From the NCBI GenBank assembly GCA_013202975.1, contig JABMQY010000085.1, forward strand, positions 1 through 60,427: 60,427 nucleotides of DNA, in the 5' to 3' direction. The stretch is from Candidatus Saganbacteria bacterium (GTDB lineage Bacteria > Margulisbacteria > WOR-1 > XYC2-FULL-46-14). How positions within the stretch are numbered: position 1 is the stretch's first letter; each line of letters begins with the position of its first letter. The position numbers were made by a program, and so were the translations under genes. A model generated the notes under the pieces. The model did no database searches and had not been told where the DNA came from. It saw only the letters and a program-made list of their open reading frames with translations. This document shows, piece by piece, positions 3,758-45,491 of this stretch.

Positions 3758-5014
3758 ATGGGAGATGTAACAAAGTTAAGTTTTCAATCAGCAAAAACGA
3801 CAGCAAAGGTGCATGTCAACAGAGGCAAAAAGTCGGGAGGTCTTGTGCTTGGCTGCTCAGATGGAGTTGGGACTCAAATATTAGACGGTGCAGTACCGGG
3901 AGTAAAAAGAGCTAGCAATTTTATCTCCGTTGCATTAGCCGACATCTCAAAGGGCGGAAGAGAGGTAACTGTAAGGACCACGCTAAAGCCGGGTTCAAAA
4001 GCACTTCCTCCTAACGTAAAAAGTATTTCAATTGTTCTCGGAACTAAAAATTCAGCAATCTGTTCAAAAGCTCCAGAGGGAGCGGTAATAGATATTGGGA
4101 CTCCGGCCAAAATGGGCAAGGATCCGGTTGTTCAGACCAAAGATGGCAAGTATGCCGGGATGGGGTTAAAACCTCAGAGTCGAATAGCCAGTAAGGATGG
4201 CTACACTACCATTACCCGCGATTATTATGCCGACAAAAATGGTGTCAAAGTAATAAGATATAGTGAACAGCAGGGATTTTCCACAACCAAGAGCGGAACT
4301 TATAAGGCAAATGATAAAGGACAGATTTTGTGCGAGAGCAATTCGGGATCTGTTCCTTGTAAACTTGCAGATGAAAAATTAGGTCAGCTTGATTCCACTG
4401 TTACCCCGGTTAAATGCGAAACAAAAAACAGCTGTGATCCGACCAGTTTAGTTACCGCAAAAACCTGGTATCAGGTAGAGGTAAATGGTACTTCAAATTC
4501 TACACCAAAATTTGGCCTGTCGCATGTTTTTGGCGATGATCCCAAAAAGTGCCTGAGTGATCCATTCAGATATGTTAAAAATGCGGATGATACCTTAAAA
4601 GAAGTTTCTGATCCGGGACAAGCTGGAAAACCGGTTGCCTGCGGAGTGTTTCCATCTTGTGATCCGGTGAAAAAGACAGATGGCGGTATCGATTCAGGAG
4701 TAAAAAAAGACGCAACAGTAAAACCGGATTCTACTCCGGTTTCGGACGGAGGACCGTATAATCCTCCAACTTATCCGATTTATGTGTCGGCAAAAATTGT
4801 AGACAAGGACGGCCGAGTTCTTTCGGAGATAAAGAAACAGCTTGCTCCGGCGCTTACCGCCACATCAGGAATAAAGATTCCTATTTCTTTGGATAGTTTT
4901 AATAAACCGACTGGGGACATTAAATTAGAATTAACGATTAATACTACTAACATTACCCGCGGAAGATTATTTGGTCTTAATCTGCAGGGTGACTTGGTAT
5001 ACGAAACAAAATAG
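3758..5014 (+). CDS. Hypothetical Cys-containing protein; member 2 of the MG..AKVxVN..G..G..GC N-terminal motif family
   Basis: RBS AAAGGGAGG upstream. N-terminal 40 aa align with ORF 1..726. Many Cys, Pro, Thr; likely extracellular. Confidence 0.6.
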   Translation: MGDVTKLSFQSAKTTAKVHVNRGKKSGGLVLGCSDGVGTQILDGAVPGVKRASNFISVALADISKGGREVTVRTTLKPGSKALPPNVKSISIVLGTKNSAICSKAPEGAVIDIGTPAKMGKDPVVQTKDGKYAGMGLKPQSRIASKDGYTTITRDYYADKNGVKVIRYSEQQGFSTTKSGTYKANDKGQILCESNSGSVPCKLADEKLGQLDSTVTPVKCETKNSCDPTSLVTAKTWYQVEVNGTSNSTPKFGLSHVFGDDPKKCLSDPFRYVKNADDTLKEVSDPGQAGKPVACGVFPSCDPVKKTDGGIDSGVKKDATVKPDSTPVSDGGPYNPPTYPIYVSAKIVDKDGRVLSEIKKQLAPALTATSGIKIPISLDSFNKPTGDIKLELTINTTNITRGRLFGLNLQGDLVYETK

Positions 5015-19409: not shown

Positions 19410-20435
19410 ATGCTAAAAAATAAAATAATTGCTTTTGATTTTGACGGAGCACGACTTGGTCGCTCGCTAGCAGAACTATTTAAAGGAATATGTCGCGGAG
19501 AGGGAGTAGATGCGGCACAGCTAAGAGAATCTGGAGTGCCAGTCGCTGCAGTTTTAATAGATAAGGCAATTAAACAAAATAATATAGGAAATCTTTTAGT
19601 AAAAAGTGGATTTATTTTGCCAGATCACGGAGTAATTGATTTGGATAAATTCGATATTAAATCTGATCTCTCTGTGCCTAAGCCCAATATGAATTTTAGG
19701 AGTGCCTTGTCACCAGATCAAGTCTTAGAGTTAGTCGGAGCAAACAAAATCTCAGTGTTGTTTTTGAGTGAATTATTTTCTAGTGGCCTGCTTGCAATAA
19801 GTGTTGAAAAAGGGTACGAATATTCTCTCGTTAAATTTTTTAGTTTTATTAAAGATATGTTAGGACAACTAGATGCCTGTTTTCGCCGTGACGGTGATCC
19901 TGATACTTCTGAAATAAATGACATTTATCAACAAATAGATAGATTAAGTAGAGAGGATTATTCTGGAATAACAATCGTTTGTAATAAGGATTTTATAAGT
20001 AAATATCGATCATTCCTTTATTTGGATGGAGATGTTGAGGTTGTTCCTCTTACTTCTTTATACGGCTTTTTGTCAATCACGACTTCTAATCCTTCAGAGA
20101 TAGTTGGGGAAACGGAATATGTGACAGATTTTTCTTCTAATGATGCTCAAGAGATTCGAAAAAGGGTTTTTAATATTATAAATCTGGCTCTTGAAAAGGG
20201 GACATTTTTAGAAAAGAATCTCGAAAGAATTTCAATGGCCTTGTCTTTCTCTGCAAGTAGCCAAGGGTGGGCGATTGATTCGGAAAGGTTTGTGGTGCAG
20301 GTGAGAGGTATTGTGGGAGGATTGGGGTATTATTATTTTGATGTTAAAGGAAATTATTTTATAAAAATTGACAATCCGGATGATTTGGCTATATTGGAAA
20401 ACCAGCGCTGTTTTTCAAGTATTTCTTTGTGTTAG
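19410..20435 (+). CDS. Hypothetical protein (341 aa)
   Basis: ORF with AGGGAGAA RBS-like sequence upstream; no recognised domain. Confidence 0.5.
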   Translation: MLKNKIIAFDFDGARLGRSLAELFKGICRGEGVDAAQLRESGVPVAAVLIDKAIKQNNIGNLLVKSGFILPDHGVIDLDKFDIKSDLSVPKPNMNFRSALSPDQVLELVGANKISVLFLSELFSSGLLAISVEKGYEYSLVKFFSFIKDMLGQLDACFRRDGDPDTSEINDIYQQIDRLSREDYSGITIVCNKDFISKYRSFLYLDGDVEVVPLTSLYGFLSITTSNPSEIVGETEYVTDFSSNDAQEIRKRVFNIINLALEKGTFLEKNLERISMALSFSASSQGWAIDSERFVVQVRGIVGGLGYYYFDVKGNYFIKIDNPDDLAILENQRCFSSISLC

Positions 20436-36867: not shown

Positions 36868-37482
36868 GTGCCAATAGCACAGATATCATCAATGACTTTT
36901 TATCGTCCAGGAGGGAAGGGGAGTATAACAGATAAAAGACTAATTAGAAAAAATGTTGAAGAGTTTTCAGCTGGACACTTGCTTGCGAAGCCATCTGATT
37001 GCGCATTTTGGCCAGCAGAGGTCGGATCAATGAGCGAAGTCTTACTCTGTGAAAGAGATGAAGGGGAAGGGCCTCTCTCTTTTTCGTTCTCTATCTTTAG
37101 GAGAATAGACAATGAGGCTGTCAAACAAATACACAACATGCAAATTCCATTAATGTTCCTGCGTCCACTTGTTCTGCCTGATGGTATAGTGAAATATACT
37201 GATATTTATTGCCAAGAAGATGGGGAATTTAGGCTTAGTAACAAAGATCTTCTACTTTCGGGATTACACTCAACTACTTTGCACGATCGCTTCACACTTG
37301 ATCAGGAAAGATGCCAAATAGCTTTTCCAGAGGTAGTTGATGCAAGATCTCCTCTCTTTGGTCCGCTTGAGGATCTCTTTTCTGGCGAGGCTGCAGATCA
37401 AGAACAGATTGCTGAGGTTGTAATGAAATTGCTCTTTCAAGCACAAAAGAGGGCACTAATAGGAACTTATTCAGAGCAATAA
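36868..37482 (+). CDS. Hypothetical protein (204 aa), GTG start
   Basis: ORF preceded by RBS GAAGGAGGGGGAGGG; no recognised domain. Confidence 0.45.
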   Translation: MPIAQISSMTFYRPGGKGSITDKRLIRKNVEEFSAGHLLAKPSDCAFWPAEVGSMSEVLLCERDEGEGPLSFSFSIFRRIDNEAVKQIHNMQIPLMFLRPLVLPDGIVKYTDIYCQEDGEFRLSNKDLLLSGLHSTTLHDRFTLDQERCQIAFPEVVDARSPLFGPLEDLFSGEAADQEQIAEVVMKLLFQAQKRALIGTYSEQ

Positions 37483-37523
37483 GCACTTTCGGCAATGCCA
37501 TGATTTTGGTATACTAATGATAT

Positions 37524-38084
37524 ATGGGACAGTTTAAATTTAGCAAAACCAATATTGCCGGCGTCTTAATCATAGAACCCAAAGCCTTTTTTGATAACCG
37601 CGGATTTTTTATGGAGTCCTACAATAAACAGAATTTTGCTGATGCCGGATTTACTGATGTATTTGTCCAGGATAATCACAGCGTTTCTGGGGAAGGGGTT
37701 TTGCGCGGTATGCATTATCAAATAAATCCTGCTCCAATGGGAAAGCTGGTCCGCTGCATAAAAGGCAAGATTTTTGATGCTGGGGTTGATATTCGCAAAG
37801 GGTCAAAGACCTTTGGTCAGTGGTTTGGAGATATTCTTGATGAAGAAAACATGAAAATGATCTATTTTCCACCGGGGATTGCGCATGGTTTTTTGTCGCT
37901 TGCAGAAGATACCCATGTTTATTACAAATGCACCGGCTTGTACAGCAAAGAGGATGAGCGGGCAATGATCTGGAATGATCCGGCGGTTGGAATAAAATGG
38001 CCTCTGGATCAGGTAGGCGGTACGCCTATCCTATCTGATAAAGACAAGGTGCATCCTGGGATAAAAGGGGCAATACAATTTTAG
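37524..38084 (+). CDS. rmlC: dTDP-4-dehydrorhamnose 3,5-epimerase
   Basis: ..IEPKAFFDNRGFFMESYN.. ..LRGMHYQ.. ..KLVRCIKGKIFDAGVDIR.. ..YFPPGIAHGF.. are RmlC cupin-family motifs. Confidence 0.88.
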   Translation: MGQFKFSKTNIAGVLIIEPKAFFDNRGFFMESYNKQNFADAGFTDVFVQDNHSVSGEGVLRGMHYQINPAPMGKLVRCIKGKIFDAGVDIRKGSKTFGQWFGDILDEENMKMIYFPPGIAHGFLSLAEDTHVYYKCTGLYSKEDERAMIWNDPAVGIKWPLDQVGGTPILSDKDKVHPGIKGAIQF

Positions 38085-38555
38085 TCAGGGTAAAGAGCTA
38101 AATAAGCGCAGAAATTTAACTATACAATAAAGAATATATTTCCTCAAAAGCATAAGTTTGTGAATTATAAGTCCGGCCAGGCCATTCTTTGGATATAATT
38201 TTCTGTTTTTTCTGATTATTTTGTAAACTTTTCCTATGATATTCTCAAAGGGGATAATATAGGGGTCTATTTTGTTGTTGTTGTCTCCTCTGGTAATAAA
38301 ACCTTCTGGTGTAATCCTTATTACACGATGTATAGTTGTGCAGATTTTTTTTGTTTGAATGTATTGGATTATGTCTCCTCTTTCTACTGAGGTTTTGTCA
38401 GGATATGGTTTAATAATTACCCTGTCTTTGTCTTTTATTACGGGAGACATGCTGGGACCATGACAGGTTGCAGTTTGTTCTTGACTAACTAATGAGTTCA
38501 TGTTTAAATTATACAGCAATATGCAAATTATGAGGGACATATAATGCCTAAACAA
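38085..38555 (-). CDS. ER/archaeal-type (SipW/Sec11-like) signal peptidase I, short form
   Basis: Box B ..HGPSMSP.. (Ser nucleophile), box C ..RGDIIQY.., box D ..IHRVIRI.. with His in place of the bacterial Lys general base, box E ..TRGDNNNKIDPY... Confidence 0.65.
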   Translation of the reverse strand: MFRHYMSLIICILLYNLNMNSLVSQEQTATCHGPSMSPVIKDKDRVIIKPYPDKTSVERGDIIQYIQTKKICTTIHRVIRITPEGFITRGDNNNKIDPYIIPFENIIGKVYKIIRKNRKLYPKNGLAGLIIHKLMLLRKYILYCIVKFLRLFSSLP

Positions 38556-38804
38556 AAAGAATACAGAAAACCAGAATTATATTGTTTTACAAATGATGCT
38601 CTATTAGATTGTATTAATGGTACCGGGGCTAGTAATACGGGTACTTGCCAAGGTGGGGATGGAGTGGTTTCAGGTAATTGTTTTAACGGTGAGGTTGCAC
38701 TCTCGTCCTGTATTTCAAATGGCGTACATGCTGCAAGGGGTTGCACTACGGTGGGGTCATTCTATACTAATCCCGGATGTGGAGCTGGGATTGGCCCATC
38801 TTAA
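38544..38804 (+). CDS. Small Cys-rich peptide (86 aa) with KPELY N-terminal motif and repeated C-x-x-G units
   Basis: RBS GAGGGA upstream. MPKQKEYRKPELYCFTNDALLDCINGTG..TCQGG..NCFNG..SCISNG..GCTTVG..GCGAG. Paralogous to the convergent ORF 38805..39020 at protein and DNA level (AAACCAGAAyTATAT). Confidence 0.45.
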   Translation: MPKQKEYRKPELYCFTNDALLDCINGTGASNTGTCQGGDGVVSGNCFNGEVALSSCISNGVHAARGCTTVGSFYTNPGCGAGIGPS

Positions 38805-39020
38805 TTAGATTTCTTCTTTTGATCCGTTGTTGCAGGCAGCTGTTATGGCGTTTCCATTGACGCATTTGTCTACTGCTAGCGTTCCTGGTCCGCAGCCCGA
38901 ATTAGCTTCAAGGCCTTGTTTACAAGCAAGCTTTCTTGAGGCAGCATTGCCATCCAGGCAGGCGCCCTCAGAGAATTTGCTTGAAGAAATTTCATATAGT
39001 TCTGGTTTTGTGTATAGCAC
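38805..39020 (-). CDS. Small Cys-rich peptide (71 aa, GTG start) with KPELY N-terminal motif and repeated C-x-x-G units
   Basis: (V)LYTKPELYEISSSKFSEGACLDGNA..ACKQG..GCGPG..KCVNG..ACNNG; shares leader and core pattern with ORF 38544. No obvious RBS, so the call is weaker. Confidence 0.35.
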   Translation of the reverse strand: MLYTKPELYEISSSKFSEGACLDGNAASRKLACKQGLEANSGCGPGTLAVDKCVNGNAITAACNNGSKEEI

Positions 39021-39068
39021 AGCTAAATACTAACAATCAACTCGGATAAAGACAAGGTGCATCCTACC

Positions 39069-40205
39069 TTAAAAGATGCTGATTTGTTTTAGTGGAATCT
39101 TATGTTTCTTTGCCAACTTCTTTATATCTTCAAACTCCGGCGCAGCGGTGATAACCTTATTATCCAGAATTCCTAGTTTAACTTCAACTTTTCCATACTT
39201 AGTTTTAGCTGTCATGAACTTTCTCTTAAGTTTTTCTCGTTTAACTAAAAAAGTACGGACGCCCAGGGAAGTCGTTTCTTTGAATAGTGCTTCTAATACT
39301 TCGAGTTTGTGAAAAGTTTCACAAAGTGCCGTAAGTTTTATTGCTTGCCGTTTTTTCTTCATAAGAATAGGCTCAATCCAAGCGTCTAGAGCGCCGGCTT
39401 TCATTGTTTTCTTAATAGCTTTGTTATAAAGTTTTGGATTCATATCATCAATATTAGCTTCGATTTGTAGAACTGTGTCTGTTTCTGTCTGGATCTCTTT
39501 TTTGCCAAGATAGATTCTTAAAGCATTTGGAAGCTTAGGGATTATATGTCCTCCGGCACCAGCTCCAATATTTTCAAAGACCATGCGCGGTATTTCACCA
39601 AAGCTTTTTGCTAAAGATTTTATCAGAACGACTCCGGTTGGGGTTGCCAGTTCTTTTTTAACTGGTGATCCATAACACGGAATCCCTTTTAGTAGTTCAG
39701 CCGTTGCTGGAGCAGGGACTGGCAGGATTCCATGAGAGTGTTTTACGGTTCCGGAACCTACATTAATAGGGGAGCTGTATATTTCGCTTATTCCTAGTTT
39801 TTTTAGACAAATTAATGTCCCAACGATATCTATTATTGCATCAGTTGCGCCGACTTCGTGCAGATGGACTGTGTCCATTTTTTTACCATGGACTTTGGCT
39901 TCTGCAGCAATCAGAGTTTTGTAAATTTGGATGGCTTTTCTTTTGATGTCAGGCGAGAGTTTGGATTTTGAGATAAGGGCGGTGATTGATGAGAGGGTTG
40001 TCCCATGGTCGCGACCTGTCCGTACATCTACATACCTAGCCTTCAGACCATTCCGGTCGACCTGTTTGATGATGAGCCGATAGGGGGGGAGATGGATCTT
40101 CTTTAGCTCTCCTCGAAGATATGTTTCCGATACTCCAAGATCAAGTAATGCTCCAAGGATCATATTTCCGGCAATTCCGGAGGAGCAGTCAACGTATAAT
40201 AGCAT
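39069..40205 (-). CDS. larC: LarC-family nickel insertion protein (nickel-pincer cofactor biosynthesis, DUF111)
   Basis: N-terminus MLLYVDCSSGIAGNMILGALLDLGVS.. is the hallmark of TIGR00299/LarC. Confidence 0.8.
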   Translation of the reverse strand: MLLYVDCSSGIAGNMILGALLDLGVSETYLRGELKKIHLPPYRLIIKQVDRNGLKARYVDVRTGRDHGTTLSSITALISKSKLSPDIKRKAIQIYKTLIAAEAKVHGKKMDTVHLHEVGATDAIIDIVGTLICLKKLGISEIYSSPINVGSGTVKHSHGILPVPAPATAELLKGIPCYGSPVKKELATPTGVVLIKSLAKSFGEIPRMVFENIGAGAGGHIIPKLPNALRIYLGKKEIQTETDTVLQIEANIDDMNPKLYNKAIKKTMKAGALDAWIEPILMKKKRQAIKLTALCETFHKLEVLEALFKETTSLGVRTFLVKREKLKRKFMTAKTKYGKVEVKLGILDNKVITAAPEFEDIKKLAKKHKIPLKQISIF

Positions 40206-40851: not shown

Positions 40852-41942
40852 ATCTTTAGCAGTTTTCTTATCAAATCGGCAACTGCAAATGCAGCGCGAG
40901 GTTTTCTAAGCCGTTCGATATTCTTTTTAATACTTTGATACTCTGTTCCTTCTTTTAATTCTTTTATCTGCTTTGCAACTATTTTGGGATCCACGGTGTA
41001 TTTTCCGATTTTCTCCTTTTGTACAAATTCAATGTTACCTTCCTCATTTCCCGGCACATAATCAGTGATAATCATTGGAAGTCTCATTGCCATGGCCTCG
41101 GCAATTGTTCCGGGGCCGGCTTTAGTAACAATCAGGTCCGAATCTGCCATAAGCTCTGCGACCTTATCGGTAAAGCCAAAGACCCGCATCGGAATGGTGA
41201 AATCTTTACTGTTTTCTAGTCTTTCTTTTAGTTTTTTGTTTCGTCCGGCTATAATAATTAACCGGGCTTTAATTTTTTGCTGGTTTATCTCTCTTACAAT
41301 TTCATATATATTGCCAGAGCCTTCTCCCCCCCCCATAACCAGTATTGTAAAGGGGCCATCTTTTTTTGTGTTTTCTGTGCAGAATTTTGGATCAATTGGA
41401 GTTCCGCAAACCTTGATCGATTCTTCTTTTAGTCCATATTTTATAGATAGCTCTTTTGCATGTTCTGACCCAACAATGGTAAGATCTGATTCTGGCATTA
41501 CCCACATGCGGTGCATAGAGTAGGGGTCCATGATTACTGAGACCAGCTTGATATTAAGTTTTTGCTCTTTGACCCGCCTAAAAACCATCCTGCTTACCGG
41601 ATGAGTTGAAACCAGAATATCTGGGCGGTACTGTTTAATCAGCTTATCAATTTTGCGAAGCATAAAGGGCCAGCCCATTTTTTCTATTTTTGCGATTCGA
41701 TCGCTGTTTTCAAAGTGATAAAACAAATTCTTCCATATGTTTGGGAAGTAGCGGATAATCGGACCGTATAGTTTTGCAAGAAATGCCAGGAAGCTATTGG
41801 TATAAACAAATACCTCAACCTGATCTTGTTCAATAAGGCTGCCATAAGATTTTTCGCAGGCTTTGGATTTTGCTTTAACTGCCGAGCGATGCCCGCCGCC
41901 GGTGTCAGAAAATAAATAGAGAATTCTTTTTTTATTGTTCAT
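40848..41942 (-). CDS. MGDG-synthase-like / diacylglycerol glycosyltransferase (GT28 family, MurG-like fold)
   Basis: N-terminal ..ILYLFSDTGGGHRSAVKA.. motif of monogalactosyl/monoglucosyl-diacylglycerol synthases; C-terminal GT-B domain. Confidence 0.7.
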   Translation of the reverse strand: MNNKKRILYLFSDTGGGHRSAVKAKSKACEKSYGSLIEQDQVEVFVYTNSFLAFLAKLYGPIIRYFPNIWKNLFYHFENSDRIAKIEKMGWPFMLRKIDKLIKQYRPDILVSTHPVSRMVFRRVKEQKLNIKLVSVIMDPYSMHRMWVMPESDLTIVGSEHAKELSIKYGLKEESIKVCGTPIDPKFCTENTKKDGPFTILVMGGGEGSGNIYEIVREINQQKIKARLIIIAGRNKKLKERLENSKDFTIPMRVFGFTDKVAELMADSDLIVTKAGPGTIAEAMAMRLPMIITDYVPGNEEGNIEFVQKEKIGKYTVDPKIVAKQIKELKEGTEYQSIKKNIERLRKPRAAFAVADLIRKLLKI

Positions 41943-42475
41943 GGATGTAATTTATATAGTTTTGCCGATAAAAGGTATAACATTATAAAGAGATGAATAA
42001 TTAATGTAGCTATTCCTAAATAGACTACACTTGTATTTGCTAACGTAAGTGCTGCTCCCAGACAGCTAAAGGAAAAGGCGCATATTTCTACTTTTGATTT
42101 CTTTTTGATATATTCTTTTATTATCTCGGGCAGGTTTGGTCTTTTGAGGGCAGCAGAATATTTGAAGACCGCAAAAGCAAAGCAGATTGCATTCACCGTA
42201 AACCAAAGAGCAGGATCTTTTATAATAAAGATGGTTAATATAATAAAAGAAACAAGTGTCAGATCAAAAGCCAGCTCGCGATAATTTTGGGTTGGGCCGA
42301 TATGTCTTATAAAGTAATCTATTCCAAAGATCCAATGCAGCAGAAAAAAGAGTGTGTTGAGCCATAATACATAATCGGCGCTCGATGTCATTCGCTGAAA
42401 CATGAACAATAAGACCAGCAATGCGGCGCCAAGCGTTATTTTGCTGTTCAAAAGCTGTGTATTTCTTTTAAGCAT
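41939..42475 (-). CDS. Integral membrane protein, hypothetical (178 aa)
   Basis: Multiple hydrophobic helices; translationally coupled to neighbouring genes. Confidence 0.5.
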   Translation of the reverse strand: MLKRNTQLLNSKITLGAALLVLLFMFQRMTSSADYVLWLNTLFFLLHWIFGIDYFIRHIGPTQNYRELAFDLTLVSFIILTIFIIKDPALWFTVNAICFAFAVFKYSAALKRPNLPEIIKEYIKKKSKVEICAFSFSCLGAALTLANTSVVYLGIATLIIHLFIMLYLLSAKLYKLHP

Positions 42476-44735: not shown

Positions 44736-45491
44736 TTGAAGATGGCAAGGATTAGACCGCGATTATCATTAATGCAACAGCTTTCAGGAAATCCTAAATA
44801 TAGAGGAAGGCTTTTGGCTTTGGAATATAGAACACCCAAAGGCAATCTATTAAAGGCAAGACAGGTATTTGGGAGAACCCTGTCTGAGATTCAAGAGGCA
44901 ATTGAGCAGGTTGATGCGCAAGTCTCCCCACCTTCTTCTAAACGCTTGGATTTGGCTGTAGAGTATTCTCTAGCAGAATTTGATGCGATTCGAGGCCCTG
45001 TTGGGGATATATCTCCTGTTGAATTCCCTTTTACTATTGAAGCTATCCATTCCATATTCCCTAAAGCGCAAATTATTTGTGTAAAAAAAGGATCCTATGC
45101 AAAAATTGATGGGCATCCATTTGATCTGGATGAAGACGCACACCTGCTTAAAATCACCAAGAAGGGTTCAGATGAGATGTTTGCTATAAGGGATATTAAT
45201 ACAGGAATCATTGCGGTTGAAAGGCTTAATAGCTTTTTAAGAAGAAGAGAAGTTAAGTTAAGGGTGGTTTTGCCTTCTTTAGATTTAGTGCGGATTTGTT
45301 GTTTAAATAGTGTTGATTGTGGGCAGTTATCAACTAATATAATCACTGCAGAAAGAGGAACCAGAGCGAGCTATCCATCTTGGGGTGTTATTTCTCTTGA
45401 TGATCTTCAATCTGTTTTTCTGCTTCAGAGCGGACAGAAAATGGAGGACTTGGGTCTTTTGCTTCAAATTGTTCCCAAAACTTTAGAGTAG
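44736..45491 (+). CDS. Hypothetical protein (251 aa)
   Basis: ORF; no recognised domain. Confidence 0.45.
   Translation: MKMARIRPRLSLMQQLSGNPKYRGRLLALEYRTPKGNLLKARQVFGRTLSEIQEAIEQVDAQVSPPSSKRLDLAVEYSLAEFDAIRGPVGDISPVEFPFTIEAIHSIFPKAQIICVKKGSYAKIDGHPFDLDEDAHLLKITKKGSDEMFAIRDINTGIIAVERLNSFLRRREVKLRVVLPSLDLVRICCLNSVDCGQLSTNIITAERGTRASYPSWGVISLDDLQSVFLLQSGQKMEDLGLLLQIVPKTLE

What the first reader, a model, noticed from the sequence alone, without database searches (positions are those of the whole stretch)
38085..39020. Convergent pair of paralogous Cys-rich KPELY peptides abutting an ER-type (SipW-like) signal peptidase gene
Two small ORFs (86 and 71 aa) lie tail-to-tail with zero intergenic distance. 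Both start with a ..KPELY.. segment and continue with 5-7 repeats of C-x-x-G spaced ~10 residues apart in a Gly/Asn/Ser/Thr/Ala-rich background. Neither has a hydrophobic signal sequence. They also share DNA-level similarity in inverted orientation (AAACCAGAAyTATAT). The adjacent gene is a short signal peptidase with Ser/His chemistry (..GPSMSP.., ..HRVIRI.., ..GDNNN..), the ER/archaeal/SipW type; in Bacillus this type is dedicated to specific matrix substrates. The peptides look like RiPP-precursor-like or metal-binding (nickel? larB/larC are the next genes) Cys-repeat peptides, with a possible dedicated leader peptidase. No radical-SAM or lanthipeptide maturase is visible in the window, so the modification route, if any, is unknown.
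Basis: partly seen in the sequence, partly recalled or inferred. Interest (0 to 1): 0.6.

Follow-up and report, generated by a model that had tools for sequence, protein, structure and literature searches.

The report
Stranded piece of a peptide-antibiotic-type gene cluster
The two small cysteine-rich genes and the neighbouring protease gene are real, and they belong to a widespread but unannotated family of precursor peptides and leader-removing proteases found in "SynChlorMet" radical-SAM peptide-modification clusters; here they sit alone, without the modifying enzymes, as a ~950-base insert in the end of a sugar-biosynthesis gene.

Summary
Peptide A (38544-38804 +, 86 aa) and peptide B (38805-39020 -, 71 aa) are paralogs lying tail-to-tail. 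They abut an ER/archaeal-type S26 peptidase (38085-38555 -).

Both peptides belong to a family of at least 76 distinct peptides. Each has an N-terminal [YF]xxPx[LIVM] motif, the lasso-type motif bound by PqqD-like proteins, followed by 4-7 C-x-x-G units spaced 10-12 residues apart.

In 36 of 37 informative related loci, the homologous peptidase and peptide sit inside a SynChlorMet (SCM) cassette: ScmD (PqqD), ScmE and ScmF (radical SAM/SPASM), ScmC, and usually an ABC exporter. The RiPP-precursor-plus-leader-peptidase reading is therefore supported. The nickel/Lar reading is not.

This window is atypical:
- No Scm maturase lies within 60 kb.
- The peptidase lacks the family's conserved C-terminal domain.
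- The gene order is scrambled.
- The ~951-bp module is flanked by two copies of the rmlC 3' tail, an att-like integration scar.

I read it as a stranded SCM fragment, either a relic or a module served in trans. Neither Pfam nor NCBIfam has a model for the peptides, and I found no paper describing them.

The parts
38028..38084 (+). rmlC 3' tail, copy 1. These are the last 19 codons of the functional rmlC (37524-38084): ILSDKDKVHPGIKGAIQF*. It marks the left boundary of the insert.
   Evidence: rmlC scores 223.8 bits on TIGR01221. Direct repeat D1. The two tails align in register with a 21-nt identical core. Translation.
38085..38555 (-). SCM-type S26 (Sec11/archaeal-type) leader peptidase, C-terminally truncated. 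It is 156 aa from the TTG start. The true start is probably ATG at 38501 (M19, 138 aa) or at 38540 (M6, the NCBI call).
   Evidence: TIGR02228 73.6 bits, above the 51.85 cut-off. It is 40-50% identical to peptidases of SCM cassettes. It keeps GPSM, HRV and GDNNN plus the family signature IHKLMLLRKY. It lacks the ~50-65 aa C-terminal beta domain (..GEWQIRFPYKYF..) present in the homologs. Homology runs to within about 3 codons of its stop, which touches the rmlC stop.
38544..38804 (+). Precursor-type peptide A (86 aa, long subtype). It has the leader motif YRKPEL, 6 core Cys and 1 leader Cys. NCBI locus tag HQ564_06950, annotated 'hypothetical protein'.
   Evidence: 46.9 bits, E 3.7e-14 against a family HMM trained without it. 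It resembles the long-subtype members P0040, P0045, P0047 and P0050. A GAGG sequence lies 8 nt upstream of the ATG.
38805..39020 (-). Precursor-type peptide B (71 aa, canonical 5-Cys subtype). It has the leader motif YTKPEL. The predicted leader is MLYTKPELYEISSSKFSEG and the predicted core starts ACLDG. NCBI HQ564_06955, annotated 'hypothetical protein'.
   Evidence: 74.1 bits, E 1.2e-22 against a family HMM trained without it. The Y-to-first-Cys distance is 18, the family mode. NCBI name.
38561..38582 (.). Left arm of the 22-nt inverted repeat. It is the DNA encoding the Y-R-K-P-E-L-Y leader motif of peptide A. The partner arm is 38994-39015 (Y-T-K-P-E-L-Y of peptide B).
   Evidence: Inverted repeat I1, 91% complementary. 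It is explained by identical amino acids written in AT-rich codons. No Rfam match in 37900-39300.
39036..39092 (+). Relic rmlC 3' tail, copy 2 (INSDKDKVHPTLKDADLF*). It is no longer attached to a gene and overlaps the 3' end of larC (39069-40205 -) by 24 nt. It marks the right boundary of the insert.
   Evidence: Both copies have the same length and the same stop-codon register. The 21-nt core is identical and the flanks have diverged.

Best explanation
The region is a ~951-bp fragment (38085-39035) of a SynChlorMet (SCM)-type radical-SAM RiPP gene cluster, integrated at the 3' end of rmlC in a Candidatus Saganbacteria genome. It carries two precursor-peptide genes and the cluster's dedicated leader peptidase.

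How the complete clusters most likely work (inferred from gene content):
- The ~19-residue leader carries Y(-17)xxPxL(-12), which the PqqD-family protein ScmD binds, as in lasso peptides.
- ScmD presents the Gly/Ala/Ser-rich core to the two radical SAM/SPASM enzymes ScmE and ScmF. These most likely install one cross-link or modification per C-x-x-G unit, probably thioethers.
- ScmC, distantly HPr-kinase-like, adds or assists a further step.
- A soluble Sec11-type Ser/His peptidase removes the leader after a small residue, one position before the first Cys (-3/-1 rule).
- An ABC transporter without a C39 domain exports the product.

In this window only the two precursors and a C-terminally truncated peptidase are present. 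The module cannot mature the peptides by itself.

My split of the possibilities:
- About 0.5: an evolutionary remnant of a larger integrated island.
- About 0.35: it is served in trans by Scm enzymes encoded elsewhere in the genome.
- The remainder: stand-alone use.

Shown here: the homology, the co-occurrence, the motif statistics, the truncation and the duplicated target. Inferred: every biochemical step.

The confidence given (0.8) is for the identity of the module as SCM-type precursors plus leader peptidase stranded without maturases in this contig. It is not for the relic-versus-trans question.
For: - Family: a profile search finds 24 further peptides of 64-92 aa. Together with the locus ORFs this gives 76 unique members, 71 of them with [YF]xxPx[LIVM] in the first 20 residues.
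- Core periodicity: Cys-Cys spacing is 10-12 residues in 247 of 314 gaps.
- Context: the canonical operon is ScmD-ScmE-ScmF-(ABC)-ScmC-peptidase-peptide, or the divergent form C-ABC-D <> peptidase-peptide ... F-E. NCBIfam confirms TIGR04248 at 115 bits, TIGR04249 at 251, TIGR04250 at 601 and TIGR04251 at 434.
- Co-occurrence: 36 of 37 loci with at least 1 kb upstream have an Scm gene, and 40 of 56 have a peptide within 800 nt downstream of the peptidase. Peptidase and peptide ORFs often overlap by 4 nt, for example in L005, L006, L007, L017 and L023.
- Predicted cleavage site: the Y-to-first-Cys distance is 18 in 45 of 68 peptides. Position Cys-2 is A/G/S/C in 61 of 68, and Cys-4 is small or aliphatic in 55 of 68. 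This places Y at -17, as in lasso leaders (PMC10368454).
- Peptidase type: TIGR02228 is above its cut-off, and SEC11C/A are the best PDB relatives, with Ser, His and GDNN aligned. No transmembrane-grade hydrophobic window is present.
- Orphan status: tblastn of ScmC/D/E/F and ABC against the 60-kb window gives nothing better than E ~1. The neighbours are housekeeping genes.
- Truncation.
- Insertion scar.
- Not an assembly artefact.
Against: - No biochemical data exist for any SCM cassette that I could find, so the cross-link chemistry, the ScmD-leader binding and the cleavage site are all inferences.
- The rest of the MAG could not be searched, so 'no maturase' holds only for this 60-kb contig.
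- Against a pure relic: all three ORFs are intact. Both peptides keep every invariant family residue (Pro, the Cys columns, the Gly). The peptidase keeps Ser, His and Asp. GC3 (0.26-0.375) is within the host range.
- Peptide A fits the cleavage rule poorly: its Cys-2 is Leu and its Y-to-Cys distance is 16.
- The related loci are not all independent. Several come from the same populations, for example L003/L004, L005/L034/L036 and L009/L043.
- The AlphaFold models are only moderate (pLDDT ~72), and Foldseek against the PDB was uninformative.
Confidence: 0.8

Rival explanations
1. The module is functional. The two precursor genes and the short peptidase are a remote 'substrate cassette', and the peptides are matured in trans by ScmD/E/F/C encoded elsewhere in the same genome, as remote precursors are in some other RiPP systems.
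For: - The ORFs and all invariant residues are intact although the peptidase is no more than 50% identical to any sampled homolog and the profile-search peptides 28-41% identical to peptide A.
- Full clusters often carry one canonical peptide plus one or two longer, divergent ones, as in L001, L004, L036, L038 and L045. The window's B + A pair mirrors this.
- Codon composition is host-like.
- A second orphan peptidase-peptide pair exists among housekeeping genes in L041.
Against: - The peptidase lacks the C-terminal domain conserved in the homologs.
- 36 of 37 informative loci keep the maturases within 10 kb.
- The other orphan, L041, has lost the invariant leader Pro: MKYLDIVLY versus MKYLDPILY in L007. 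That looks like decay.
- No Scm gene is known from this MAG, though this could not be tested.
Confidence: 0.3
2. These are stand-alone Cys-repeat peptides that bind metal, nickel in particular because larB/larC are adjacent, or that form disulfides. Only the adjacent peptidase processes them, with no radical-SAM chemistry.
For: - The regular Cys spacing and the adjacency to larC/larB.
- The peptidase shows weak similarity to the NiSOD maturation protease model TIGR02754 (34.6 bits).
Against: - TIGR02754 is far below its cut-off of 63.25.
- None of the 55 other loci has a lar homolog.
- The module is an insert between rmlC and larC, so the adjacency is positional.
- The family-wide leader motif and the near-universal linkage to PqqD plus rSAM/SPASM genes point to enzymatic modification.
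Confidence: 0.07
3. This is a SipW/TasA-like arrangement: a membrane signal peptidase dedicated to secreting two small extracellular proteins through Sec.
For: The peptidase is of the same ER/archaeal S26 type as SipW. The window protein has a borderline hydrophobic N-terminus if it starts at TTG or M6 (Kyte-Doolittle mean 1.52).
Against: - The peptides have no hydrophobic signal sequence.
- The SipW equivalog model scores 37.2 bits against a cut-off of 190.
- The SCM-linked homologs begin about 13 residues before the catalytic GPSM with no membrane anchor.
- The clusters carry their own ABC exporter.
Confidence: 0.03
4. The ORFs are not genes. They are chance ORFs, or a structured RNA formed by the inverted repeat.
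For: The ORFs are short. There are overlapping antisense ORFs, and one JGI assembly called the antisense ORF instead of peptide B. Promoter-like sites are no more frequent than in shuffled sequence.
Against: - The independent family HMM gives E 1e-22 and 4e-14.
- 76 homologous peptides occupy a conserved operon position.
- There is no Rfam match.
- The inverted repeat is only 22 nt and coincides with the shared leader motif.
Confidence: 0.01

Closest known systems
SynChlorMet (SCM) cassette: NCBIfam TIGR04248 ScmD, TIGR04249 ScmC, TIGR04250 ScmE, TIGR04251 ScmF; Pfam PF27840 ScmC
   Same: The window's peptidase and both peptides are homologs of the peptidase and peptide encoded at a fixed position in these cassettes.
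   Different: The window has none of the four defining Scm proteins and no ABC exporter. Its peptidase is truncated and its gene order rearranged. As far as I recall, the curated description of the cassette says the precursor was not identified; I could not verify that text. No Pfam or NCBIfam model hits the peptides.
Lasso-peptide leaders and their PqqD-like RRE (B1 protein)
   Same: The leader has a YxxPxL motif. If cleavage is one residue before the first Cys, it sits at the same distance (-17 to -12) from the predicted cleavage site. A PqqD-family protein is present in the cluster. HPr-kinase-like enzymes also occur in some lasso clusters (PMC10368454; ScmC weakly hits Hpr_kinase_C).
   Different: There is no lasso cyclase and no B2 cysteine protease. 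The core is 45-100 residues with periodic Cys, not a 15-25-residue lariat. The maturases are rSAM/SPASM enzymes.
Ranthipeptides and sactipeptides with repeated Cys motifs, for example freyrasin PapA/PapB with six C-x3-D units (from my own knowledge; PapB is the subject of PMC10739248)
   Same: The core has repeated short Cys motifs and is modified by rSAM/SPASM enzymes. ScmE hits the PapB model weakly (108 bits against a cut-off of 340).
   Different: The repeat unit here is C-x-x-G-x-x-A with 10-12-residue spacing. There are two distinct rSAM enzymes plus ScmC. The chemistry is unknown. The leader peptidase is S26-type.
ER/archaeal-type signal peptidase I (Sec11, archaeal SPase, Bacillus SipW)
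   Same: Sequence family and catalytic motifs match: Ser in GPSM, His in HRV/HRI, and GDNN.
   Different: There is no convincing membrane anchor, and the substrates have no hydrophobic signal peptide. The SCM subfamily has its own IHKLML[FL]RKY helix and a C-terminal beta domain.
SodX, the S26-family maturation protease of nickel superoxide dismutase
   Same: It is a soluble S26-type protease that removes a short N-terminal leader from a dedicated cytoplasmic substrate. The model gives a weak hit (34.6 bits).
   Different: The score is below the cut-off of 63.25. The peptides have no NiSOD-like His-Cys-x-x-Pro-Cys hook, and there is no family-wide link to nickel genes.
Genomic islands that integrate into the 3' end of a gene and rebuild it from an element-borne copy (attL/attR direct repeats)
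   Same: Two in-register copies of the rmlC tail flank the insert. They share a 21-nt identical core and have diverged flanks. The gene-proximal copy keeps rmlC intact.
   Different: The insert is only 951 bp and carries no integrase. An empty site was not observed.

Membership tests
SynChlorMet (SCM) radical-SAM RiPP cassette | ScmE and ScmF radical SAM/SPASM proteins (TIGR04250, TIGR04251) in the locus | tested here: not met
   tblastn of ScmE/ScmF from L003 against the 60-kb window gives a best E of about 2. In the related loci they are present.
SynChlorMet (SCM) radical-SAM RiPP cassette | ScmD (PqqD family, TIGR04248) and ScmC (TIGR04249 / PF27840) in the locus | tested here: not met
   No tblastn hit better than E ~1 in the window. 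The rest of the genome could not be searched.
SynChlorMet (SCM) radical-SAM RiPP cassette | Cassette-linked S26 peptidase with the IHKLML[FL]RKY signature and a C-terminal beta domain | tested here: inconclusive
   The catalytic core and the signature helix are present, with 40-50% identity to cassette peptidases. The C-terminal domain is absent.
SynChlorMet (SCM) radical-SAM RiPP cassette | Cassette-linked precursor peptide: a [YF]xxPx[LIVM] leader plus at least 4 periodic C-x-x-G units | tested here: met
   A and B score 46.9 and 74.1 bits on an HMM built from 68 peptides of other loci.
Peptidase S26, ER/archaeal-type signal peptidase I (TIGR02228) | Score above the curated cut-off, with catalytic Ser, His and Asp motifs | tested here: met
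   73.6 bits against a cut-off of 51.85. GPSM, HRV and GDNNN align to SEC11A/C.
Peptidase S26, ER/archaeal-type signal peptidase I (TIGR02228) | N-terminal transmembrane anchor placing the active site outside the membrane | tested here: not met
   No 19-residue window exceeds a Kyte-Doolittle mean of 1.6. The window protein reaches 1.52, and only if translated from the upstream starts. Homolog P0003 reaches 1.05. The homologs start 13 residues before GPSM.
SipW (NF046067) | Equivalog score | tested here: not met
   37.2 bits against a cut-off of 190.
RRE-dependent RiPP precursor (lasso-like leader) | YxxPxL motif at a fixed distance from the core, and a PqqD-like partner | tested here: inconclusive
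   The motif is present in A and B and in 71 of 76 family members, at a fixed distance from the first Cys. The PqqD partner is present in the relatives but not in the window. Binding is not testable here.
Sactipeptide / ranthipeptide | Cys sulfur to carbon thioether cross-links installed by an rSAM/SPASM enzyme | not testable with these tools
   There is only distant similarity of ScmE/F to thioether-forming maturases: PapB 108 bits against 340, StsB 98 against 625.
Nickel-related maturation (SodX / Lar) | SodX equivalog score, or conserved linkage to nickel genes | tested here: not met
   TIGR02754 scores 34.6 bits against a cut-off of 63.25. There is no lar homolog in the 55 other loci.

The most novel reading that the evidence does not exclude
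The precursor-plus-peptidase pair is a mobile 'substrate cassette'. It moves by att-like recombination into the 3' ends of housekeeping genes and is matured in trans by a resident SCM machinery, or has a use without it. On this reading, SCM systems would diversify their products by exchanging small cassettes. The SCM peptidase would also be the first soluble Sec11-type (S26) enzyme used as a RiPP leader peptidase, acting on the previously unassigned SCM precursor family.
Probability: 0.2. Interest if true: 0.7.

Novelty: new variant of a known kind. Interest (0 to 1): 0.5.

Why it matters
The SCM cassette is a curated but uncharacterised radical-SAM system. Tying it to a concrete precursor family makes it directly testable by heterologous expression and mass spectrometry. 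That family has a lasso-like leader, a periodic C-x-x-G core, and a predicted cleavage site. The system also has a dedicated Sec11-type leader peptidase.

The peptides are annotated as hypothetical proteins or are not called at all. Genome-mining tools would therefore miss them.

The window itself adds three things:
- a new phylum (Saganbacteria) for the family;
- an example of a precursor/peptidase module separated from its maturases;
- a clean integration scar.

This bears on how RiPP clusters are broken up, moved or lost.

Tried and rejected
- The word-indexed protein search with peptide A found only itself. With the 28-sequence profile it found just 8 proteins. The full HMMER scan was what revealed the family.
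- Literature searches gave nothing relevant: 'SynChlorMet'; 'ScmC' plus 'radical SAM'; TIGR accession numbers; 'SPASM' plus 'PqqD' plus 'Syntrophobacter'; and signal peptidase plus rSAM plus PqqD. The rSAM-RiPP compendium PMC10288494 does not mention SCM.
- Foldseek of the AlphaFold model of the window peptidase against the PDB gave only small beta-barrel matches with E above 0.04. The sequence profile against the PDB was informative instead.
- An exact-sequence look-up of LarC, meant to find an empty-site contig, found no record.
- The viral contig scan with the peptidase profile gave no relative.
- The Rfam scan of 37900-39300 gave nothing.
- The promoter/terminator scan was no better than shuffles.
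- I considered and rejected the nickel/Lar link, a SipW-type secretion role, and an ncRNA or inverted-repeat artefact (see the rival explanations).
- I considered similarity to ACGX-repeat, SCIFF and dynobactin precursors. The best NCBIfam hit was dynobactin at E 0.15, so this was rejected.
Full report
**What is in the window.** The window comes from a Candidatus Saganbacteria MAG.

Five features lie at the reported coordinates:
- rmlC (37524-38084 +). TIGR01221 scores 223.8 bits.
- A 156-aa peptidase ORF (38085-38555 -).
- Peptide A (38544-38804 +, 86 aa).
- Peptide B (38805-39020 -, 71 aa, GTG start).
- larC (39069-40205 -) followed by larB.

A and B are tail-to-tail with no base between their stop codons.

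They are paralogs. BLASTP gives 34% identity at E 6e-7. They share Y-x-K-P-E-L-Y and have Cys/Gly columns in register.

The 22-nt inverted repeat is the DNA of that shared motif written in AT-rich codons. No Rfam family matches the region.

Two independent JGI assemblies are 100% identical over 37039-39075, so the arrangement is not a chimeric assembly.

**The peptides belong to a real family.** A full HMMER scan of 1.84 billion representatives with the A+B profile found 24 further proteins at E below 1e-3. Twenty-two of them are 64-92-aa peptides aligned from residue ~2.

The consensus is MKYxKPxLYxxxxxxxxxAxCxxGxxASxxxxCxxGPxAxxGGCxxGxAAxxxCxxGAAAGxxCxxGxG.

Adding ORFs from the related loci gave 76 unique peptides.
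- 71 have [YF]xxPx[LIVM] within the first 20 residues.
- Cys-Cys spacing is 10-12 residues in 247 of 314 gaps.
- The core is 21% Gly, 18% Ala, 11% Ser and 9% Cys.

I built an HMM from 68 family members that excludes the window's peptides. It scores B at 74.1 bits (E 1.2e-22) and A at 46.9 bits (E 3.7e-14). No other ORF in the window hits.

B is a canonical 5-Cys member. A belongs to a longer subtype with extra C-x-x(x)-G units, like P0040, P0045, P0047 and P0050.

Pfam and NCBIfam have no model for these peptides. NCBI calls A and B 'hypothetical protein'.

**The peptidase.** It passes the archaeal/ER-type signal peptidase I model, with TIGR02228 at 73.6 bits against a cut-off of 51.85. It fails the SipW and SodX equivalogs.

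A profile of the family finds human SEC11C and SEC11A as the best solved relatives (E 3.6e-7). The Ser (GPSM), His (HRI/HRV) and GDNN motifs align.

Its closest homologs are 40-50% identical. They begin METxKSKYSTCxGPSM, only ~13 residues before the catalytic Ser, so they have no N-terminal anchor.

No 19-residue window reaches the Kyte-Doolittle transmembrane threshold. The window protein probably starts at M19 (38501) or M6 (38540), not at the TTG at 38555 that overlaps peptide A.

The homologs are ~200 aa. AlphaFold (pLDDT ~72) predicts three parts:
- a beta core (residues 12-95);
- a long helix carrying the family signature IHKLML[FL]RKY;
- a four-stranded C-terminal beta domain (..GEWQIRFPYKYF..).

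The window protein keeps the core and the helix but stops ~50-65 residues early. Homology runs to within about three codons of its stop. Foldseek of the window model against the PDB was uninformative.

**Genomic context elsewhere.** I obtained the contigs encoding the homologous peptidases. I then ran a scan of GTDB species genomes (8 loci) and a scan of JGI metagenomes (54 loci). I annotated all of them with phmmer and hmmsearch.

Two recurrent architectures appear:
- ScmD-ScmE-ScmF-(ABC)-ScmC-peptidase-peptide, as in L005, L007, L009, L010, L042 and L043.
- ScmC-ABC-ScmD <> peptidase-peptide ... ScmF-ScmE, as in L003, L017, L019 and L032.

NCBIfam confirms the cassette: TIGR04248 (ScmD, 115 bits), TIGR04249 (ScmC, 251), TIGR04250 (ScmE, 601) and TIGR04251 (ScmF, 434 in L008).

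Co-occurrence is strong.
- 36 of the 37 loci with at least 1 kb upstream of the peptidase carry at least one Scm gene.
- 40 of 56 loci have a family peptide starting within 800 nt downstream of the peptidase on the same strand, often overlapping by 4 nt.
- The remaining loci are mostly contig ends. Others belong to a subtype with the peptide between ScmF and ScmC (L050-L052, L056, L058).

Several clusters carry one canonical peptide plus one or two longer, divergent ones (L001, L004, L036, L038, L045).

Hosts named in the genome scan are Thermodesulfobacteriota/'delta proteobacterium', Lentisphaerota/Victivallales and a Pseudomonadota MAG. No viral contig carries the peptidase.

The loci are not all independent. 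Some are the same population assembled twice.

**How it most likely works (inference).** The leader motif is the YxxPxL motif of lasso-peptide leaders, which spans -17 to -12 there (PMC10368454). From my own knowledge, it is the element bound by the PqqD-like RRE.

In the SCM peptides the distance from the motif Tyr to the first core Cys is 18 in 45 of 68 cases.
- The residue two before that Cys is A/G/S/C in 61 of 68.
- The residue four before it is small or aliphatic in 55 of 68.

This is the -1/-3 rule of type I signal peptidases. It places the Tyr at exactly -17.

I therefore propose the following sequence of steps:
- ScmD binds the ~19-residue leader.
- ScmE and ScmF modify the periodic C-x-x-G units. 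Thioether-type cross-links are the likeliest. ScmE/F hit PapB, StsB and other peptide maturases only distantly.
- ScmC acts on the peptide. It hits Hpr_kinase_C weakly (E 0.003) and HprK_rel_A weakly.
- The soluble Sec11-type peptidase cuts one residue before the first Cys. For peptide B this is ...KFSEG|ACLDG.
- The ABC transporter exports the product. It is ~600 aa with no C39 domain.

Peptide A fits the cleavage rule poorly, with Leu at Cys-2 and a distance of 16.

**What is different in this window.** tblastn with ScmC, ScmD, ScmE, ScmF and the ABC transporter finds nothing better than E ~1 in the whole 60-kb window.

The neighbours are housekeeping genes:
- a PPDK-like protein;
- glycogen synthase;
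- HisG;
- an alpha/beta hydrolase;
- rmlC;
- larC and larB;
- an MGDG-synthase-like glycosyltransferase;
- MgsA.

The gene order is also unusual. On the minus strand it reads B, then A in antisense, then the peptidase.

The module is bracketed by two in-register copies of the last 19 codons of rmlC.
- Copy 1 is 38028-38084 (ILSDKDKVHPGIKGAIQF*).
- Copy 2 is 39036-39092 (INSDKDKVHPTLKDADLF*).
- They share a 21-nt identical core and have diverged flanks.

Copy 1 completes the live rmlC. Copy 2 is an orphan tail that overlaps the 3' end of larC by 24 nt.

This is the pattern left when a circular element carrying a homeologous copy of a gene's 3' end recombines within the shared core (attL/attR). 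The foreign DNA is then 38085-39035 (951 bp). It carries no integrase, and its left end cuts the peptidase gene.

The simplest reading is that a larger SCM-bearing island integrated here and later lost most of its content. An empty site was not observed, because the collection scans were exhausted.

GC3 of the three genes (0.26-0.375) lies within the host range of 0.26-0.45. Composition therefore does not date the event.

**Relic or functional?** Evidence for a relic:
- The peptidase C-terminal domain is missing.
- The window peptidase deviates at about 10 of the ~31 nearly invariant family positions, for example YPHP to YIQT and DVVH to TTIH.
- No maturases are present.
- The only other orphan pair, L041, sits between tatD and pabB. 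Its peptide has lost the invariant leader Pro.

Evidence for function:
- All three ORFs are intact.
- Every invariant peptide residue and the catalytic residues are retained.
- Peptide A has a plausible Shine-Dalgarno sequence.
- The 'canonical plus long' peptide pairing mirrors that of full clusters.

I put about 0.5 on relic, about 0.35 on trans-maturation by Scm genes elsewhere in the genome, and the rest on stand-alone use.

**Rejected readings.**
- Nickel/Lar link. None of the 55 other loci has a lar or rmlC homolog. The SodX model is below its cut-off.
- SipW-type secretion. The substrates have no signal peptide, the homologs have no anchor, and the SipW model fails.
- ncRNA or chance ORFs. 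These are excluded by the family HMM scores and the conserved operon position.

**Novelty.** The SCM cassette is curated (NCBIfam/TIGRFAMs, Pfam PF27840).

I found no paper on it in the searchable library. No model covers its precursor or its peptidase subfamily.

My recollection is that the TIGRFAMs text says the precursor was not identified. I could not verify that text here.

The window is therefore a new, atypical instance of a known but uncharacterised RiPP system: orphaned, truncated and in a new phylum. Following it up yields a concrete candidate precursor family and leader peptidase for that system.

Noticed in passing
window 38028-38084 and 39036-39092: The last 19 codons of rmlC are present twice, in register. 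Both copies end in TTTTAG and share a 21-nt identical core with diverged flanks. They bracket the 951-bp peptidase/peptide module. The second copy overlaps the 3' end of larC by 24 nt. This looks like an attL/attR scar of an integration that rebuilt rmlC from an element-borne tail.
   Followed up: partly
L041 10007-10815 (JGI contig Ga0233425_10000536): This is a second orphan peptidase + peptide pair, wedged between a TatD-family nuclease gene and pabB. No Scm gene lies in the 10 kb upstream or the 2 kb downstream. Its peptide is close to that of L007 but has Ile in place of the invariant leader Pro (MKYLDIVLY versus MKYLDPILY).
   Followed up: partly
L001 2923-3355 and L002 2973-3405: In two loci from one ENA sample only short ORF fragments of ScmF remain between ScmD and the peptidase, and no ScmE is seen. 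The neighbourhood holds PIN/RHH and PemK toxin-antitoxin genes and transposases (DDE_Tnp_1, Y1_Tnp). L001 carries three family peptides. The SCM clusters here appear to be decaying in a mobile-element-rich region.
   Followed up: no
L003 4001-4700; L015 3139-3328 and L016 6609-6798: There are apparent frameshifts in cluster genes. The L003/L004 peptidase is split, with its C-terminal domain in another frame (ORF 4437-4700). ScmF in L003 is split into 147 + 222 aa. The L015/L016 peptide is split into two 49-aa ORFs. These could be sequencing errors or pseudogenes.
   Followed up: no
L008 9950-11664 (Pseudomonadota MAG, 174-kb contig): The peptidase is followed directly by a full ScmF (TIGR04251, 434 bits). 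There is no ScmC, ScmD or ScmE and no recognisable family peptide within 10 kb on either side. This may be a reduced or differently organised variant.
   Followed up: no
L050-L052, L056, L058: This is a divergent subtype of the system. The order is ScmF - peptide (63-84 aa, leader KYEKPxI or YQAPKV) - ScmC - peptidase, and the peptidases score only 48-71 bits against the window protein.
   Followed up: no
L012 43-231 (= window 38845-39033, + strand): In one JGI assembly the gene caller chose the ORF antisense to peptide B (62 aa) instead of peptide B. Several family peptides in other loci are absent from the protein collection altogether. Automated annotation under-calls this family.
   Followed up: partly
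window 36868-37482 (+), 41939-42475 (-), 19410-20435 (+), 44736-45491 (+): These ORFs of 178-341 aa had no Pfam family at the thresholds used: E up to 1 for the first, and up to 1e-5 for the others.
   Followed up: no
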